A DNA stretch of 5,857 bases from a virus. Its lineage: Duplodnaviria; Heunggongvirae; Uroviricota; Caudoviricetes. The stretch is taken from positions 1 to 5,857 of IMG/VR virus record IMGVR_UViG_3300028995_000024; one strand, given 5' to 3'. A program made the position numbers and the translations under genes. The notes beneath the pieces were generated by a model that worked only from the letters and a program-made list of their open reading frames with translations, had not been told where the DNA came from and did no database searches. This document shows positions 1-5,857 of this stretch, one piece after another (the first letter of the stretch is position 1; each line of letters begins with the position of its first letter).

Positions 1-911
1 CGAAAAAGGCTTCGTCTAACAACAATTCCTTTAGTGCGATTTACAAGGAATGGTACGAGCACAAGAAGCAAGTCTGGTCAGTAGGATATGCGACTGAACT
101 TGCCAAAATGTTTGATGACGACATTTTGCCCATCATCGGCGGTCTTGAGATTCAGGATATTGAGCCGATGCAACTGCTGGAAGTAATCCGCAGATTTGAA
201 GATCGCGGTGCAATGGAGCGAGCAAATAAAGCCCGCAGAAGATGCGGCGAGGTTTTCCGTTACGCTATTGTCACTGGTAGGGCTAAATATAACCCGGCAC
301 CTGACCTTGCTGACGCCATGAAGGGATACCGCAAGAAGAACTTCCCGTTTTTACCTGCCGACCAGATCCCGGCATTCAACAAAGCACTTGCAACATTTTC
401 AGGAAGTATCGTATCGCTCATTGCGACCAAAGTTTTACGCTACACAGCCCTAAGAACGAAAGAGCTTCGTTCCATGCAATGGAAGAACGTCGATTTTGAA
501 AACAGGATTATCACCATCGACGCCAGTGTGATGAAGGGACGCAAAATTCATGTGGTCCCGATGTCAGACCAGGTGGTTGAACTTCTCACTACGCTAAGCT
601 CAATCACCAAACCAGTATCAGAGTTTGTTTTTGCCGGGCGCAACGATAAGAAGAAGCCAATCTGCGAGAACGCGGTATTGCTTGTGATCAAACAAATCGG
701 CTATGAGGGTCTGGAAAGCGGTCATGGATTCAGGCATGAATTCAGCACAATTATGAACGAGCACGAATGGCCTGCTGACGCTATTGAAGTGCAACTGGCA
801 CATGCCAACGGCGGATCTGTGCGTGGTATTTACAACCATGCTCAGTATCTCGATAAACGCAGAGAAATGATGCAATGGTGGGCGGACTGGCTTGAGGAGA
901 AGGTATCATAG
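1..911 (+). CDS. int: Tyrosine site-specific integrase (phage/P4-like family), 5'-partial; the N-terminus lies upstream of the window
   Basis: The reading frame is open from the window edge (first full codon at nt 3) to TAG at 909-911. Translation upstream of the ORF-track ATG at 108 stays open (...KKASSNNNSFSAIYKEWYEHKKQVWSVGYATELAK-MFDDD...), so that ATG is internal. Catalytic-domain signatures of tyrosine recombinases are present: LRTKELR (box I Arg), HGFRHEF (H-x-x-R box II) and RGIYNHAQYL (catalytic Tyr), ending in MMQWWADWL. Confidence 0.9.
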   Translation, partial: KKASSNNNSFSAIYKEWYEHKKQVWSVGYATELAKMFDDDILPIIGGLEIQDIEPMQLLEVIRRFEDRGAMERANKARRRCGEVFRYAIVTGRAKYNPAPDLADAMKGYRKKNFPFLPADQIPAFNKALATFSGSIVSLIATKVLRYTALRTKELRSMQWKNVDFENRIITIDASVMKGRKIHVVPMSDQVVELLTTLSSITKPVSEFVFAGRNDKKKPICENAVLLVIKQIGYEGLESGHGFRHEFSTIMNEHEWPADAIEVQLAHANGGSVRGIYNHAQYLDKRREMMQWWADWLEEKVS

Positions 912-1259: not shown

Positions 1260-2327
1260 ATGAATAGCAAAATTTTATCAGTGCATTACATGAGGGCTTT
1301 GGCCTCCATCGCGGTGTTAATAGATCATTTCTCAGGTCTATTGGTTATCAATGGGAATCCAATTCCATTTTTATCGAGAGGTGGATTTGGAGTAGATCTT
1401 TTCTACATTATTAGTGGATTTATCATCTACATTTCGTCAGGAAACAAAGATAATAACAAACCTATAAAATTCATACTAAAGCGATTTTTCAGAATTTATC
1501 CATTATTCATCGTTGCATGGATAATAGGGATGTCATTTGTGTTCAAGAGTGACAGCGTATGGTCATTTTTAGAGCCGCTACTATTGGTATATCAAAATTA
1601 TAATGGAATGGCCCCTCAGTTCGGTACCCATGTTATGGGAACCCCATGGACACTGGCTTACGAACTACTCTTTTACGCAATTTTTGTTTTAGCTATTTCA
1701 ATAACTCACAAGCACCGGGCGGCATTATCAATAGCGATACTGATCCTAATGCCGATATCACTACAACTAATATTCAACGATTCATTCTCCATTCAGAGTT
1801 CTGCATTTGCCAATGCAAGTAAAGACATTCCTATGTATGGAGTAATTAGAATGGCAAGTGGAACAATAATGTTTGAGTTTGCTATAGGAATTTTATTAGG
1901 TGTTTCCTTCAAGAAAATGAAGAAGATTGATATAACACAAAGCGCATCTACGTTATTCTTCTATTCTGGGGTAATGATATCTATTGCAATACTTATTACC
2001 AACGGAAATCAGATTTCTAAATTTGGTTTGCAAGGCTATTTCATTCCGTCAATTGTTCTTTTTATATCGTTTTTCTTCAGGGATAAAACATCAAATATAA
2101 AACACAATGGATTCCTGGAGTTCTTCGGAAATATTTCATACTCGCTGTACATCACACATTTCATAATTTATGTATGGATAGTTCAGCATCTTGACAGGGT
2201 ATGGATGGAACCGGTTAGGGGGTACCCTATAGTTATTATCGGAATGGTTGCAAGCATTATATTCTCTTGGTGTTGTTATGTCTTTGTAGAGAAACCATTC
2301 ATAAAAGTCGGCAAGCGATATTTATAA
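1260..2327 (+). CDS. Acyltransferase family 3 integral membrane protein (Oac/OafA-like carbohydrate O-acyltransferase); candidate O-antigen/LPS O-acetyltransferase
   Basis: 355-aa ORF that is hydrophobic throughout, with about 10 predicted transmembrane segments. Family-typical motifs are present: N-terminal R-x-L-A-x-I-A-V-x-x-x-H (RALASIAVLIDHF), GVDLFYIISGF, KRFFRIYPLF, WTLAYELLFY and C-terminal GNISYSLYITHF. A weak AGGT ribosome-binding site lies ~5 nt before the ATG. The gene is markedly AT-rich (about 25-35% G+C in sampled lines) against ~47% in int and ~55-60% in the tail genes. Confidence 0.85.
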   Translation: MNSKILSVHYMRALASIAVLIDHFSGLLVINGNPIPFLSRGGFGVDLFYIISGFIIYISSGNKDNNKPIKFILKRFFRIYPLFIVAWIIGMSFVFKSDSVWSFLEPLLLVYQNYNGMAPQFGTHVMGTPWTLAYELLFYAIFVLAISITHKHRAALSIAILILMPISLQLIFNDSFSIQSSAFANASKDIPMYGVIRMASGTIMFEFAIGILLGVSFKKMKKIDITQSASTLFFYSGVMISIAILITNGNQISKFGLQGYFIPSIVLFISFFFRDKTSNIKHNGFLEFFGNISYSLYITHFIIYVWIVQHLDRVWMEPVRGYPIVIIGMVASIIFSWCCYVFVEKPFIKVGKRYL

Positions 2328-2435: not shown

Positions 2436-2663
2436 AACCTTATTGCATTGGCGGATTTGAAAAAAAGAAAACTTATTAATGAAGCCAACGAGCACATGAA
2501 CAGAAGACAATGGCCTGGTAAAGCGGCCATTGGTCGTCTGAAAGGTGAGAAACTGGCGCAATATAATTTGTGGCTGGATTATCTGGACGCACTGGAACTG
2601 GTTGATACCTCCAGTGCTCCAGATATTGAATGGCCTACGCCTCCGGCAGTTCAGGCCAGATGA
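2436..2663 (+). pseudogene. Tail-fibre assembly protein (Tfa/Mu-U family), C-terminal ~75-codon fragment, 5'-truncated
   Basis: The frame opens immediately after a TAA at 2433-2435 and has no in-frame ATG; the ORF track starts it at a TTG at 2448. The translation ends ...KLAQYNLWLDYLDALELVDTSSAPDIEWPTPPAVQAR, the characteristic Tfa C-terminus (DTSxAPDxxWP). The sequence upstream is unrelated and AT-rich, so the N-terminal part of the gene is missing. Confidence 0.7.
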
Positions 2664-3228
2664 CATCCGGCGCGGTGCTGGTATCTGTTGCCGTCACCGC
2701 GTCAATGTAATCCAGCACGGCGTTAAGTCGGGTGGTCTCTGCCTGCATCAGCTTCCGCCCGGCCTGTAATTTCAGCTGAATCAGACTAATGGAAGCCATT
2801 GCTGCATCAATCAGTGACTGGCGCTGTGCTTCCGCCACTTCTACTACGGCACCGTGTTGTGCCTCAGTATCTGTCACCCATTTCTCACCATCCCATTCAT
2901 CGTATGGTGTTAACGGTGAAAGCGTGACATAATCGTCTTTGATGGCACCGATATAATCCACTGTAACAGCTGCACCATTTTCTGTTGAGTAAACAGTCTC
3001 ATTGCGATGGTCTTCTTCATGGCTCCATCCCTTACCCGTAAATACTGCCACTTTCCCCGGAATGTTTTCGCCAGGGTCAATACCAGTGGAACAGGCGGGC
3101 ATACTTACGCCAGTATTAATATATTCATCAGACCAGCCAGTATATTCATACGTTACTGCATCATAATAAAAACAACGCATATCGCCCGGCACTGTAGCCA
3201 GCCCATTTTCATCAAAAACAGGTTTCAT
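2635..3228 (-). CDS. tfa: Tail-fibre assembly protein (Tfa/Mu-U/lambda-Tfa family)
   Basis: 197-aa ORF whose C-terminus ...RLNAVLDYIDAVTATDTSTAPDVIWPELPEA matches the Tfa family signature. Its ATG (3228..3226) overlaps the stop of the upstream tail-fibre gene as TAATG, indicating translational coupling. It lies immediately 3' of a tail-fibre gene, as expected for this family. Confidence 0.85.
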   Translation of the reverse strand: MKPVFDENGLATVPGDMRCFYYDAVTYEYTGWSDEYINTGVSMPACSTGIDPGENIPGKVAVFTGKGWSHEEDHRNETVYSTENGAAVTVDYIGAIKDDYVTLSPLTPYDEWDGEKWVTDTEAQHGAVVEVAEAQRQSLIDAAMASISLIQLKLQAGRKLMQAETTRLNAVLDYIDAVTATDTSTAPDVIWPELPEA

Positions 3229-3992
3229 TATTTAGCCCTCACCAGAAAGTTAAACGCGATATTACGAGGACGTGTTTCACTTGCAGTTTTCGTTTCAATG
3301 GCACTATCAATAGAGAAATGCTGCAAATCCTGAGATGCAGCACCGTAATTGGTGTAAGAATTAACAAGTGCACCCGCTTTTATTGAGCCAGAGCTACCCA
3401 TAGCTCCCCCCATGAAATTCCCTGTTATACGCTGCTGAGCAAAGTCCTGTGCGCTTAACAACGTGCGACCACCGTCTACACCTCGCCCGTCATCCCAGAT
3501 ACGAATGAAATCACCGCGGGCTTCAGGTAATACCAGCGAAGGAAACACTTTCGCCAGCACAGGATAATCAGAAGCAGAAAATTTCGCCCCGTTGAACTTC
3601 AAAAACACCATACTGGACCAGCTGCCGATTACAGTATTTGGCATTGCAGCGGACGGCCATAAGAACGGAACGCCAATAGCTGGAGCACCTTCTCCCAAAC
3701 CAAGGTTTTCGAGAGCTGTTTTCACCGTACCATCCGATTTGATATCGCCAAACGGATTATTGCGGCTTAACAGCAGCGCACGAAGCGCGGTAAGCAGCTG
3801 GTCGTGCCGCGTCTTCTCAAGACTGGCACCGGATGCCTCCACCACGCTGCAAAGCTCCTCCTGCAACATGTCAAAGTAGTCATCATCCAGAGCGGTGGCA
3901 GGTGTGCCGGTCTGGGGGTTACCACGGGTAAAACCGTTCTTACCCGCGCCGAACTTATCCTTCTGCGCGGTTTTCGTGTCTATACGATGCAT
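3228..3992 (-). CDS. stf: Phage tail-fibre protein (short side tail fibre; conserved N-terminal anchor region plus C-terminal collar-like receptor-binding region)
   Basis: 254-aa ORF. The N-terminus [14 protein letters not shown]...[27 protein letters not shown] resembles the conserved N-terminal region of enterobacterial prophage tail fibres. The C-terminal part contains a motif like the phage tail-collar domain ([33 protein letters not shown]). It sits between a gp48-like baseplate gene and tfa. Confidence 0.8.
3690..3715. other. Candidate DNA-invertase crossover site (hix/gix/pix-like 26-bp dyad) inside the tail-fibre gene
   Basis: TTCTCCCAAACC-AA-GGTTTTCGAGAG consists of two 12-bp half-sites around a 2-bp AA core. 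The left half and the reverse complement of the right half (CTCTCGAAAACC) agree at 9 of 12 positions. Compare hixL TTCTTGAAAACC-AA-GGTTTTTGATAA and gix TTCCTGTAAACC-GA-GGTTTTGGATAA, both recalled from memory. The site encodes residues ~93-101 ([10 protein letters not shown]) of the tail fibre, which is where a constant/variable boundary would be expected. Confidence 0.5.
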
Positions 3993-3995
3993 GGA

Positions 3996-4580
3996 TTACT
4001 CCGGATATTTAAAAATTACGTAGGTATCCCACGGGCAGAGTTTGTTAAGCACGCACTCGACAACGGTGTCCCCCCAGATACGCAGCGCAGAATCACAGGG
4101 ATCGCCACATGTCATCCAGGTGGTGTTGGTGGCGGCTGGCATGTTGACCTGCCAGTAATACCGCCATTCCGGCGCATTCACCGCGTCAGTACAGACCGAT
4201 GAGCAGGTGAACGTGCTTTTGTCGTATCGCGTGATGTTGGCATCTGGTCTGCCCAGGGCAGCAAGCTGTGCAAGATAAAAATTCTCGTTGATGCTGCCCG
4301 CCAGGTTAACCTTCGCATCCAGCCGTTGCTGACGCTGACGAAGGGTCTTTGTCCCTGCGGGAATACATTCATCCGGCAGACCGCACAGACGCTCCCAGCG
4401 GTTTATCAGTTCAGTGGTGGTGCGCGGATCCAGCTCCCGCATCAGGGCATCCGCACGCTGATGAACACGGGTTAATGACGGTGCCGCACCGGCAATCGCC
4501 GGATCGCTGGCTGATCACGCCGGACCGGGGGGCAACAGTGCCGACAACAGACGGATGTAATCATCGTTTGTCACGTCCAT
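3996..4580 (-). pseudogene. Mu gp48-like / DUF2313 (YmfQ-like) baseplate-associated tail protein, interrupted by an in-frame TGA at 4517..4515
   Basis: The ORF track reports only 3996..4442 (148 aa, [26 protein letters not shown]...). The same frame continues upstream for 24 codons ([24 protein letters not shown]) to a TGA. A further 21 codons upstream (MDVTNDDYIRLLSALLPPGPA) start at an ATG at 4580..4578, which has a GGGGA ribosome-binding site ~7 nt upstream and overlaps the stop of the upstream gene. An intact gene would be 194 codons. From memory of the family, the position holding TGA normally holds Trp (TGG) in an LLPPGxAW motif. Confidence 0.7.
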
Positions 4581-5629
4581 GAAATCGTCCCCAGAACCGC
4601 CAGTTCATTTTTTGCAATGGAGATATTGTCTGCCGGTGCAAGCAACTGATGGCTGTATTCCCCGTTCGCACCGGAAATCGCCTCACTGATACGCGATACC
4701 TTCAGTTCTCCCTGCGGATAACCATCACGCAGCAGGAACGAACGCAACTCCGCGGTGATGGCAGCCCGTATTTCCGGTGTGTCCGGCGTCACGCGGATAT
4801 GAAAATCCACCGTATGTGCCACCGGCCTGAACACATACAAATCAGAGCCTGCCACCGGGGCCAGTGGCTCGATATGTTGTCTTGCCGCCGTTTCCGTTGA
4901 TTCTTCCGGAATGGGATTAATCAGGTCACTGCTGGCAATCATCACACCGACAGTTCCCGTTCCCATCCAGTGACGGTATGTCCATGCGCGGGTAATGCCG
5001 GGCACTTCTTTAGCCCAGACGACATAGTCCCCGTCAGCCCCGCCCTGCGGCGTCCAGTAATACCGCTCAATGACGCGGGCGCGCCACGTTTCCAGATCTT
5101 CAGTATCGAATCCGCCAGTCAGGGTATCTGCAACACCGGAAGACGGCAGACCATTAACCGGCGTGACCAGGATTAATGACGTACCGTCGTCAGCGTTACC
5201 GACCGCGCCTGCACTTGAGCAGGCGATCGGCACGCGCAGGACACCACCGGAGCTGGTTGCATCGGCAGTTGCCGTGTACTGAACCAGGTCATCGCGCTGA
5301 ATAACACTCCCGGCGGTCACCTTCAGGCCATCGCTGACACCTTCCCAGCGCATATACCCGCTGGCAGCCGTGGCCCCCTTGCGCGGACACCGTTTCATCG
5401 CAGCATGTCGCGCCAGCCAGGACTCATCGCACAGGTCAGGCAGCATGTTCATTGCCAGATAATCGATGTACCCGTAAACCGTATGCAGCGCCGCCGCATA
5501 CACCTTTGCCCGCACGTCTTCATCCATGCGCCGGAGCGTGTCGCTGACGTCCAGCCTGGCGAATAAATCGTTACGGAGCATACTGATATTTTCTGCCAGC
5601 GTCGGGCGCTGAAATTCACTGTCCGCCAT
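4571..5629 (-). CDS. Baseplate assembly protein J-like (Mu gp47 / P2 gpJ family)
   Basis: 352-aa ORF whose size, position (between a gp46-like and a gp48-like gene, upstream of the tail fibre) and sequence character match baseplate-J family proteins. Its start overlaps the stop of the upstream gene by 14 nt. The family assignment is by recollection of the conserved gp46-gp47-gp48-fibre gene order, not by alignment. Confidence 0.8.
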   Translation of the reverse strand: MADSEFQRPTLAENISMLRNDLFARLDVSDTLRRMDEDVRAKVYAAALHTVYGYIDYLAMNMLPDLCDESWLARHAAMKRCPRKGATAASGYMRWEGVSDGLKVTAGSVIQRDDLVQYTATADATSSGGVLRVPIACSSAGAVGNADDGTSLILVTPVNGLPSSGVADTLTGGFDTEDLETWRARVIERYYWTPQGGADGDYVVWAKEVPGITRAWTYRHWMGTGTVGVMIASSDLINPIPEESTETAARQHIEPLAPVAGSDLYVFRPVAHTVDFHIRVTPDTPEIRAAITAELRSFLLRDGYPQGELKVSRISEAISGANGEYSHQLLAPADNISIAKNELAVLGTISWT

Positions 5630-5857
5630 GCGTTATCGCACTCCACAGATCATCAAAAGAAATCATTACCGGTCCGTCACGACGCCAGAGAGTGATACTG
5701 TTACCCAGTTCATTAATCCCGGTGCGGCGGATATCCAGATCAATACGGGACACCACGCCGTCATCAATCATCCATTGCAGGCATTCGCGGATATACCCCC
5801 TTACTGTCTGCACCAGCTGATTGGTCAGTTTGCTGCGCTGAAGCAGCCACAGTCGGG
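5616..5857 (-). CDS. Mu gp46-like baseplate protein, 5'-partial; the N-terminus lies beyond the right edge of the window
   Basis: The minus-strand frame is open from the window edge (...RLWLLQRSKLTNQLVQTVRGYIRECLQWMIDDGVVSRIDL...) to TGA at 5618..5616. The ORF-track start at 5813 is an internal GTG. The RLWLL motif and the position immediately upstream of the baseplate-J-like gene fit the gp46 family. Confidence 0.6.
   Translation of the reverse strand, partial: RLWLLQRSKLTNQLVQTVRGYIRECLQWMIDDGVVSRIDLDIRRTGINELGNSITLWRRDGPVMISFDDLWSAITHGGQ

What the first reader, a model, noticed from the sequence alone, without database searches (positions are those of the whole stretch)
4443..4580. In-frame TGA splits the gp48/DUF2313-like baseplate gene; the ORF-track 148-aa protein is probably a 3' fragment
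Both sides of the TGA at 4517..4515 are in the same frame and look like coding sequence of one gene. The upstream ATG at 4580 has a GGGGA ribosome-binding site and overlaps the stop of the preceding gene, as in a coupled operon. The stop sits where I would expect a Trp codon (TGG to TGA, a single transition). This is most likely gene decay in a cryptic prophage, which would mean the baseplate module is non-functional. Alternatives are a sequencing error or low-level UGA read-through.
Basis: partly seen in the sequence, partly recalled or inferred. Interest (0 to 1): 0.4.

Follow-up and report, generated by a model that had tools for sequence, protein, structure and literature searches.

The report
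Nonsense-mutated ymfQ baseplate gene in prophage
A single G-to-A change has turned an invariant tryptophan codon into a stop codon in a phage baseplate gene (ymfQ/Mu gp48 family) of a decaying E. coli prophage; it is an ordinary pseudogene that public annotation already flags.

Summary
On the minus strand an ATG at 4580 opens a 194-codon frame ending at 3996. The only interruption is a TGA at 4517..4515, codon 22. E. coli K-12 e14 ymfQ, the intact prophage of strain Yu5 and the viable phage SfV (orf20) all have TGG there. Trp22 is present in 98 of 98 full-length homologues and aligns with the Trp of the LLPxGxAW motif in solved phage Mu gp48. The TGA allele is rare and lineage-restricted. It occurs in 4 of 5,426 complete E. 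coli genomes, against 863 and 279 genomes with TGG in two sequence contexts, and in 1 of 117 metagenome contigs. It recurs in independent assemblies, so it is not a sequencing error. RefSeq already annotates the gene as "YmfQ family protein, pseudo, internal stop" in three strains whose sequence differs from the window by 2-3 bases. In those strains the same argW prophage has also lost its head genes and carries stops, a deletion and a frameshift in the sheath and other baseplate genes. The 148-aa ORF is a leftover: it starts at conserved internal Met47 and lacks the N-terminal helices that, in Mu, anchor gp48 in the baseplate wedge. The finding is ordinary and already known.

The parts
3996..4580 (-). 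ymfQ / Mu gp48-family baseplate wedge gene, 194 codons plus stop, now a pseudogene
   Evidence: Single frame with one internal stop. PF10076 83.8 bits, profile 3-149/150. Same 585-nt gene intact in K-12 e14, Yu5 and SfV. Flagged 'pseudo, internal stop' by PGAP in near-identical genomes.
4515..4517 (-). Premature TGA at codon 22 (Trp22 to stop; G-to-A at window 4515 on the coding strand)
   Evidence: TGG in K-12, Yu5 and SfV. Trp in 98/98 full-length homologues. Aligns with the Trp of LLPSGLAW in PDB 9ki1 Mu gp48. 33-mer counts: TGA in 4 genomes, TGG in 863 and 279 genomes.
4578..4592 (-). True translation start: GGGGA Shine-Dalgarno-like element (4592..4588) and ATG (4580..4578), overlapping the end of gp47
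   Evidence: Sequence read directly. 96/98 homologues begin at this position. Same start annotated in K-12, Yu5 and SfV.
3996..4442 (-). 148-aa residual ORF starting at internal Met47; a by-product of ORF calling, not a gene of its own
   Evidence: the ORF listing. Met47 is an internal residue conserved in 97/98 homologues. The same 148-aa ORF arises in S. flexneri VA-6 from a different lesion, a 180-bp deletion. Covers only Pfam profile 40-149/150.
4571..5629 (-). Upstream baseplate J / gp47 gene (352 aa, intact in the window), translationally coupled to ymfQ
   Evidence: PF04865 182.6 bits. Identical to the 300033 copy. The stop at 4573..4571 overlaps the ymfQ start.
3228..3992 (-). Downstream tail-fibre gene (254 aa), whose start follows the ymfQ stop by 3 nt
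   Evidence: the ORF listing. Weak Collar-domain match. Occupies the position of the SfV short tail fibre gene orf21. In Mu the fibre docks on gp48 (PMC11915804).

Best explanation
The gene at 4580..3996 (minus strand) is the ymfQ / Mu gp48-type baseplate wedge gene of an SfV/e14-like prophage with a Mu-type contractile tail. The prophage is integrated at tRNA-Arg (argW) next to yfdC in E. coli. One G-to-A transition changed the invariant Trp22 codon TGG into TGA. Translation starting at the true ATG (4580) should therefore end after 21 residues. The 148-aa ORF from Met47 is only what is left for an ORF finder. Even if it were made, it would lack the two N-terminal helices. In Mu gp48 the N-terminal region joins two gp47 copies in the core three-helix bundle that fixes the wedge between gp43 subunits. 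The mutation is real, inherited and confined to one small lineage. In that lineage the prophage is already a non-inducible remnant: head genes deleted, sheath and hub genes broken. So the lesion is neutral decay and not a regulatory device. Shown: the stop, its ancestral state, its rarity, its recurrence in independent assemblies, and the other lesions in near-identical genomes. Inferred: loss of protein function, absence of meaningful re-initiation, and that the window's own genome carries the lesions that lie outside the window.
For: Stop and frame. Ancestral TGG. Trp22 in 98/98 full-length homologues, 96/98 starting at the upstream Met, and LLPxGPAW as the most conserved N-terminal block. 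Mu gp48 (PDB 9ki1) aligns at E=2.6e-9 with Trp at the same place. Pfam coverage 3-149 versus 40-149 of 150. Rarity: TGA in 4 of 5,426 complete genomes versus TGG in 863 and 279 genomes, and 1 TGA versus 116 TGG in metagenome contigs. Same TGA in strains from Mozambique (two) and Germany and in two metagenome contigs. PGAP 'pseudo, internal stop'. Other lesions verified directly. Intact 97.2%-identical prophage in Yu5. Viable phages SfV, SfII, SfI and SfIV are 96.6-96.9% identical over the baseplate genes; SfV, the only one read at this codon, has TGG. All TGA alleles also carry H185D, and some carry Q78K and S184W. Q78 and S184 are invariant and H185 is 45/46 in 46 diverse homologues. Q78K and H185D were not seen in the TGG alleles sampled. 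Role of the gp48 N-terminus: PMC11915804. N-terminal helices H5-15 and H27-50 in the AlphaFold model of a 96%-identical homologue.
Against: No expression data exist. Some UGA read-through by tRNA-Trp is expected in any E. coli, and it would restore the wild-type residue. The lesions that make the prophage defective lie outside the window, so they are inferred for this genome. The structure model is of low overall confidence (mean pLDDT 59.5), so the helix boundaries are approximate. Several substitutions I first took as decay (G96S, D100N, T115N, A129V) also occur in intact TGG alleles and do not count as evidence.
Confidence: 0.93

Rival explanations
1. Sequencing or assembly error: the genome really has TGG and the gene is intact.
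For: A single-base difference is the commonest kind of error, and read pile-ups cannot be inspected here.
Against: The identical TGA is present in complete genomes of strains 300033, 300444 and CB209. A fourth record, NZ_OZ392441.1, has the same length and coordinates as CB209 and is likely the same genome. The TGA is also in two unrelated metagenome contigs, L008 and L086. TGA alleles share the linked change H185D.
Confidence: 0.01
2. Leaky or programmed decoding of the UGA (near-cognate tRNA-Trp read-through, or selenocysteine) still yields functional full-length YmfQ.
For: UGA is the leakiest stop codon in E. coli, and insertion of Trp would recreate the wild-type protein (own knowledge of E. 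coli termination, not tested here). The frame downstream of the stop is still open.
Against: The UGA is not conserved: 0 of 98 homologues and 4 of 5,426 genomes have it. The homologous residue is Trp, not Cys. The 61 nt from the UGA fold no better than shuffles (z=-0.51), and there is no Rfam match in the window. The next base is U, a comparatively strong UGA context in E. coli (own knowledge: Poole, Brown and Tate 1995). The wedge protein is needed stoichiometrically, at six copies per baseplate in Mu (PMC11915804). Sheath, hub and head genes of the same prophage are broken in the near-identical genomes, so a trace of YmfQ would have nothing to assemble into.
Confidence: 0.04
3. The 148-aa ORF (4442..3996) is a genuine shorter gene, or a re-initiation product with a function of its own, for example still carrying the fibre-docking loop.
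For: ORF finders call it. 148-aa proteins of this family exist in databases: P0024 with 84 member sequences and P0047 with 209, the latter named 'tail protein' in S. flexneri VA-6.
Against: Both database clusters trace to lesions of a full-length gene: the same TGA (L008) and a 180-bp deletion (L007). Met47 is an internal conserved residue in 97/98 full-length homologues. Upstream of 4442 there is only a GGA triplet as a possible ribosome-binding site, and the ATG lies 72 nt after the stop. The fragment lacks Pfam profile positions 1-39 and the N-terminal region that builds the wedge's core bundle in Mu (PMC11915804).
Confidence: 0.02

Closest known systems
E. coli K-12 YmfQ (e14 prophage; WP_000383574.1)
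   Same: Same 585-nt gene, 95.7% nucleotide identity over the 671-bp query (ymfQ plus short flanks). Same start overlapping the gp47 homologue and same downstream fibre gene.
   Different: K-12 has TGG at codon 22 and an open 194-codon frame. The K-12 copy sits in e14 at icd. This copy sits in a prophage at argW/yfdC with an IntS integrase.
Shigella phage SfV orf20 (NP_599052.1, 'baseplate wedge subunit, similar to Mu GP48') and its relatives SfII, SfI, SfIV
   Same: 96.6-96.9% nucleotide identity across gp46-gp47-ymfQ and the start of the fibre gene, with identical gene order.
   Different: SfV is a viable phage with TGG at codon 22. The window's allele differs from SfV orf20 by W22stop plus 7 missense changes. 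The cargo next to the integrase is an acyltransferase instead of gtr genes.
Phage Mu gp48 (baseplate wedge protein 3; PDB 9ki1 chain a)
   Same: Same Pfam family PF10076. The sequence match at E=2.6e-9 includes the LLPxGxAW motif. Expected same role: one copy per wedge with two gp47, N-terminal region in the core bundle, and fibre docking on a C-terminal loop (PMC11915804).
   Different: A distant homologue whose match covers 171 of the query's 194 residues. The role in this prophage is inferred, not tested, and the gene here is inactivated.
S. flexneri VA-6 148-aa 'tail protein' (P0047 cluster)
   Same: Yields the same 148-aa residual ORF from Met47.
   Different: The lesion is independent. 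A 180-bp deletion between imperfect direct repeats GGCGATT(T/G)CCGGTGCGG in gp47 and ymfQ removes the ymfQ 5' end. It is not a nonsense codon.

Membership tests
Phage_Mu_Gp48 / YmfQ family (Pfam PF10076, formerly DUF2313) | Match to the family HMM above Pfam's gathering score | tested here: met
   Conceptual 194-aa product (stop read as Trp): 83.8 bits against a cut-off of 37.4, E=1.5e-23.
Phage_Mu_Gp48 / YmfQ family (Pfam PF10076, formerly DUF2313) | Full-length domain including the N-terminal LLPxGPAW block | tested here: met
   Profile positions 3-149/150 are covered only when both sides of the TGA are joined; the 148-aa ORF covers 40-149. L15 L16 P17 G19 P20 A21 W22 are invariant in 46 homologues.
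Phage_Mu_Gp48 / YmfQ family (Pfam PF10076, formerly DUF2313) | Gene order gp46 - gp47 (baseplate J) - gp48 - tail fibre - fibre assembly | tested here: met
   Pfam hits on the neighbouring ORFs. The same order is annotated in 300033, Yu5 and SfV.
Phage_Mu_Gp48 / YmfQ family (Pfam PF10076, formerly DUF2313) | Uninterrupted reading frame (a functional member) | tested here: not met
   TGA at codon 22. It is therefore filed as a pseudogene of the family, not a functional member.
Phage_Mu_Gp48 / YmfQ family (Pfam PF10076, formerly DUF2313) | Named model in NCBIfam | tested here: not met
   No NCBIfam HMM matched either the 194-aa or the 148-aa sequence. PGAP's name 'YmfQ family protein' must come from another rule. 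This does not bear on homology.
Unitary pseudogene by nonsense mutation in a decaying prophage | The stop replaces a sense codon that is conserved in orthologues | tested here: met
   TGG in K-12, Yu5 and SfV. Trp in 98/98 homologues.
Unitary pseudogene by nonsense mutation in a decaying prophage | Derived, rare and lineage-restricted allele that is reproducible in independent assemblies | tested here: met
   4 of 5,426 genomes, against 863 and 279 with TGG. 1 of 117 metagenome contigs. Three named strains plus contigs L008 and L086.
Unitary pseudogene by nonsense mutation in a decaying prophage | Other inactivating lesions in the same element | tested here: met
   In 300033, which differs from the window by 2 bases: sheath stop at codon 99, gp43-like stop at codon 410, 869-bp gp44/gpV deletion, 5.6-kb head-module deletion. 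300444 has a further IS903B-associated loss. All lie outside the window.
Unitary pseudogene by nonsense mutation in a decaying prophage | Absence of the full-length protein | not testable with these tools
   Needs proteomics or ribosome profiling of the strain.
Programmed UGA recoding (selenocysteine or programmed read-through) | UGA conserved at the site among homologues | tested here: not met
   0/98 homologues, and only the one small lineage in E. coli.
Programmed UGA recoding (selenocysteine or programmed read-through) | Stable stimulatory hairpin (bacterial SECIS-like) immediately 3' of the UGA | tested here: not met
   MFE -19.2 kcal/mol, z=-0.51 against 200 shuffles. No Rfam family reached threshold in the window.

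The most novel reading that the evidence does not exclude
The UGA is decoded at a low rate by tRNA-Trp. That would regenerate exactly wild-type YmfQ, so the gene would be down-tuned and not dead. Alternatively, the 148-aa C-terminal fragment, which keeps the region homologous to the fibre-docking loop of Mu gp48, is made and does something of its own in the remnant. Nothing here supports either reading. The broken sheath, hub and head genes in the near-identical genomes leave such a product no machine to join.
Probability: 0.03. Interest if true: 0.3.

Novelty: already known. Interest (0 to 1): 0.08.

Why it matters
It matters mainly for annotation. The 148-aa 'protein' from this locus should be recorded as the 3' part of a ymfQ pseudogene, not as a tail protein. 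Database clusters of 148-aa 'tail proteins' (84 and 209 member sequences) show that such fragments do get deposited. It also dates this argW prophage as a grounded remnant. The acyltransferase gene and the tail-fibre genes remain open frames in the window, and in the near-identical strains intS is complete as well. The virion genes decay, which is the usual pattern of prophage domestication. No new biology follows from the stop codon itself.

Tried and rejected
(1) Sequencing error was rejected: the same TGA is in three named strains and two metagenome contigs.

(2) Selenocysteine or programmed read-through was rejected. The codon is not conserved, the homologous residue is Trp, there is no significant 3' hairpin and there is no Rfam hit.

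(3) I first counted G96S, D100N, T115N and A129V as post-inactivation decay, because G96 and T115 looked conserved in a 46-protein alignment. The allele table shows these also occur in intact TGG alleles, so I withdrew them. Only H185D, Q78K and S184W remain linked to TGA alleles.

(4) The AlphaFold model of a 96%-identical homologue came out at mean pLDDT 59.5 and pTM 0.33. I used only the better-predicted N-terminal helices and ran no fold search, since a low-confidence model gives meaningless matches.

(5) NCBIfam gave no hit.

(6) A literature search for E. coli UGA context returned only eukaryotic papers. The statement about UGA-U rests on my own knowledge.

(7) One apparent extra fusion junction in a metagenome contig (L059) turned out to be a Nextera adapter, not a deletion.

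(8) Three junction-specific probes for the deletion hotspot found nothing in 5,426 complete E. coli genomes.

(9) A search of papers for 'ymfQ' found nothing relevant.

Full report
**What is in the sequence**

Read on the minus strand, the region shows an ATG at 4580..4578, preceded by GGGGA at 4592..4588. The ATG lies inside the end of the upstream 352-aa ORF (5629..4571), whose TGA is at 4573..4571, so the two frames overlap by 10 nt. The frame opened at 4580 runs to TAA at 3998..3996, which is 194 codons. It has one interruption, TGA at 4517..4515, codon 22. The ORF finder lists only the part after the next ATG, 4442..3996, 148 aa. Every coordinate in the finding is correct.

**What the gene is**

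With the stop read as Trp, the product matches Pfam PF10076 (Phage_Mu_Gp48, formerly DUF2313) at 83.8 bits against a cut-off of 37.4, over profile positions 3-149 of 150. The 148-aa ORF alone covers only positions 40-149. The neighbours are:
- baseplate J/gp47 upstream;
- a 254-aa fibre-like protein and a tail-fibre assembly protein downstream;
- then an Acyl_transf_3 gene and the 3' part of an integrase gene.

The 671-bp region around the gene matches 1,396 of 5,426 complete E. coli genomes, where it is annotated ymfQ. The whole window differs by only 2 bases from the chromosome of E. coli strain 300033, and by 3 bases from strains 300444 and CB209. In those strains it is the right-hand end of a prophage inserted at tRNA-Arg beside yfdC, with integrase IntS. 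The baseplate part is 96.6-97.5% identical to viable phages SfV, SfII, SfI, SfIV and SKA5. In SfV the orthologue is orf20, 'baseplate wedge subunit, similar to Mu GP48'.

**The stop replaces an invariant Trp**

K-12 e14 ymfQ, the Yu5 prophage and SfV orf20 all have TGG where the window has TGA. The change is one G-to-A transition. I examined 120 homologues (60-97% identical):
- All 98 with the canonical length of 191-195 aa have Trp at this position, and 96 of them start at the position of the 4580 ATG.
- The 15 homologues without Trp there are truncated or are fusion proteins.
- L15 L16 P17 G19 P20 A21 W22 form the most conserved N-terminal block.
- Solved Mu gp48 (PDB 9ki1) aligns at E=2.6e-9, with LLPSGLAW opposite LLPPGPAW.

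That condition is not met. Met47 is a conserved internal residue (97/98), which is why any lesion upstream of it leaves the same 148-aa ORF.

**Real, rare and inherited**

I used a 33-mer centred on the codon, so that every 28-base seed must include it.
- The TGA version is found in 4 complete-genome records. These are 300033 and 300444 from Mozambique, CB209 from Germany, and a record of identical length that is probably CB209 again.
- The same context with TGG is found in 863 genomes, and the K-12 context with TGG in 279.
- Among metagenome contigs fetched with a downstream 29-mer, 116 have TGG and 1 has TGA.
- A further metagenome contig found through the 148-aa protein cluster also has the TGA.

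Recurrence in independent assemblies excludes a sequencing error. All TGA alleles also carry H185D, and some carry Q78K and S184W. The window has both; its S184W is one of its two differences from 300033. Q78 and S184 are invariant and H185 is 45/46 in 46 diverse homologues. Q78K and H185D were not seen in the TGG alleles sampled, although two TGG alleles have other residues at 184-185. This fits relaxed constraint after inactivation, but the numbers are small. Four other substitutions that I first read as decay also occur in TGG alleles, and I dropped them.

**The prophage is a remnant**

RefSeq annotation marks the gene 'YmfQ family protein, pseudo, internal stop' in 300033, 300444 and CB209. 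In the same element it marks:
- the sheath gene (internal stop);
- the DNA-circularisation/gp43-like gene (internal stop);
- the gp44-like gene (truncated);
- gpV (frameshifted).

I checked these directly in 300033. The sheath gene has a stop at codon 99 and the gp43-like gene a stop at codon 410. An 869-bp deletion joins the gp44-like gene to gpV. About 5.6 kb holding the portal, protease, capsid and connector genes is missing when compared with strain Yu5. The Yu5 prophage is 97.2% identical over the window and has every structural gene open, including a 194-codon ymfQ. Strain 300444 has lost still more next to an IS903B. The lesions other than the TGA lie outside the window, so they are inferred for this genome.

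**Consequence for the protein**

The Mu cryo-EM study (PMC11915804) gives the expected role.
- Each baseplate wedge holds one gp46, two gp47 and one gp48.
- The N-terminal regions of gp48 and the two gp47 copies form a core three-helix bundle wedged between gp43 subunits.
- The fibre docks on gp48 residues 133-155.

An AlphaFold model of a 96%-identical homologue is poor overall (pLDDT 59.5) but best at the N-terminus. There it shows helices 5-15 and 27-50 joined by the LLPPGPAW loop. Termination at codon 22 gives a 21-residue peptide. A product started at Met47 would lack both helices. Only a GGA triplet precedes 4442, and it lies 72 nt after the stop, so efficient re-initiation is unlikely; this step is inferred. 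Loss of wedge assembly is therefore inferred from homology, not shown.

**Rivals**

- Selenocysteine or programmed read-through is not supported. The UGA is not conserved, the homologous residue is Trp, the 61 nt from the UGA fold no better than shuffles (z=-0.51), and no Rfam family matches the window.
- Spontaneous read-through by tRNA-Trp would restore the wild-type residue. It cannot be excluded chemically. However, UGA followed by U is a comparatively efficient terminator in E. coli (my own knowledge, Poole et al. 1995), and there is no intact tail for the product to join.

**Verdict**

This is an ordinary nonsense pseudogene in a decaying prophage, already flagged in public annotation. 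It is of low interest beyond correcting the 148-aa ORF call.

**Noticed in passing**

Several fusion proteins in the homologue list join unrelated upstream prophage genes to ymfQ at the same point, GGATGCC|CTGATG, 3 nt before the Met47 codon. In the window this is between 4446 and 4445.
- Five junctions were verified in DNA. The left partners are a gp43-like gene, gp46, two sites in an HTH_36 replication gene, and a Cro/YdaS-like gene.
- Two more junctions in the gp43-like gene are seen at protein level only.
- The left partners share 2-7 nt of microhomology centred on GGATG.
- Two of the junctions recur in independent samples.
- None of the three junctions probed is present in 5,426 complete genomes.

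The window itself is not deleted here. The cause of this apparent deletion-endpoint hotspot is unexplained.

Noticed in passing
window 4440..4460 minus strand (junction between 4446 and 4445, in GCGGATGCC|CTGATGCGGGAGCTGGATCC); loci L009-L015: Apparent deletion-endpoint hotspot inside ymfQ, 3 nt before the Met47 codon. At least five DNA-verified in-frame fusions in other prophage remnants join different upstream genes (a gp43-like gene, gp46, two sites in an HTH_36 replication gene, a Cro/YdaS-like gene) to exactly this point. They share 2-7 nt of microhomology centred on GGATG. Two junctions recur in independent samples. None of the three junctions probed occurs in 5,426 complete E. coli genomes. 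The site lies beside a small inverted repeat, GCGGAT-N19-ATCCGC. The window is not deleted here. Mechanism unknown.
   Followed up: partly
L007 (S. flexneri VA-6) 320..490, corresponding to window about 4682..4487: An independent way of killing the same gene. A 180-bp deletion between imperfect 17-bp direct repeats, GGCGATTTCCGGTGCGG in gp47 and GGCGATTGCCGGTGCGG in ymfQ, plus a 1-nt deletion, leaves the same 148-aa ORF. That ORF is deposited as 'tail protein' in a cluster of 209 member sequences.
   Followed up: yes
window 1260..2327 (+): Intact 355-aa Acyl_transf_3 gene of low G+C (0.33-0.37, against 0.52-0.61 in the tail genes). It sits between the tail-fibre genes and intS, the slot where serotype-converting phages such as SfV carry gtr genes. 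It is probably a surface-polysaccharide-modifying lysogenic-conversion cargo, kept open while the virion genes decay.
   Followed up: partly
window 2442..2663 (+), overlapping the 3' end of the tfa gene at 2635..3228 (-): C-terminal fragment (71-aa ORF) of a second, oppositely oriented tail-fibre assembly gene. It looks like the relic of an invertible fibre segment of the e14 type (tfaE/tfaP plus pinE). The alternative fibre exon and the invertase are gone. PGAP marks it 'incomplete, missing N-terminus'.
   Followed up: partly
window 4030 and 3660: The only two differences from strain 300033 are both non-synonymous. One is S184W in the ymfQ pseudogene, at a residue invariant in 46 homologues. 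The other is F111L in the 254-aa fibre gene. The S184W allele also occurs in metagenome contigs L008 and L086.
   Followed up: yes
window 3228..3689 versus 3689..5857: Similarity to SfV-type phages stops inside the 254-aa fibre gene, at about window 3689. The N-terminal part, which attaches to the baseplate, is shared. The C-terminal part and the fibre assembly gene are different. This is the usual mosaic boundary of receptor-binding modules.
   Followed up: no
L059 (metagenome contig OZKV01004848.1) end: The contig ends with the Nextera/Tn5 mosaic-end adapter AGATGTGTATAAGAGACAG, joined directly to GGATGCCCTGATG of ymfQ. This is adapter contamination in a public assembly. By coincidence it falls at the same site as the deletion hotspot.
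   Followed up: no
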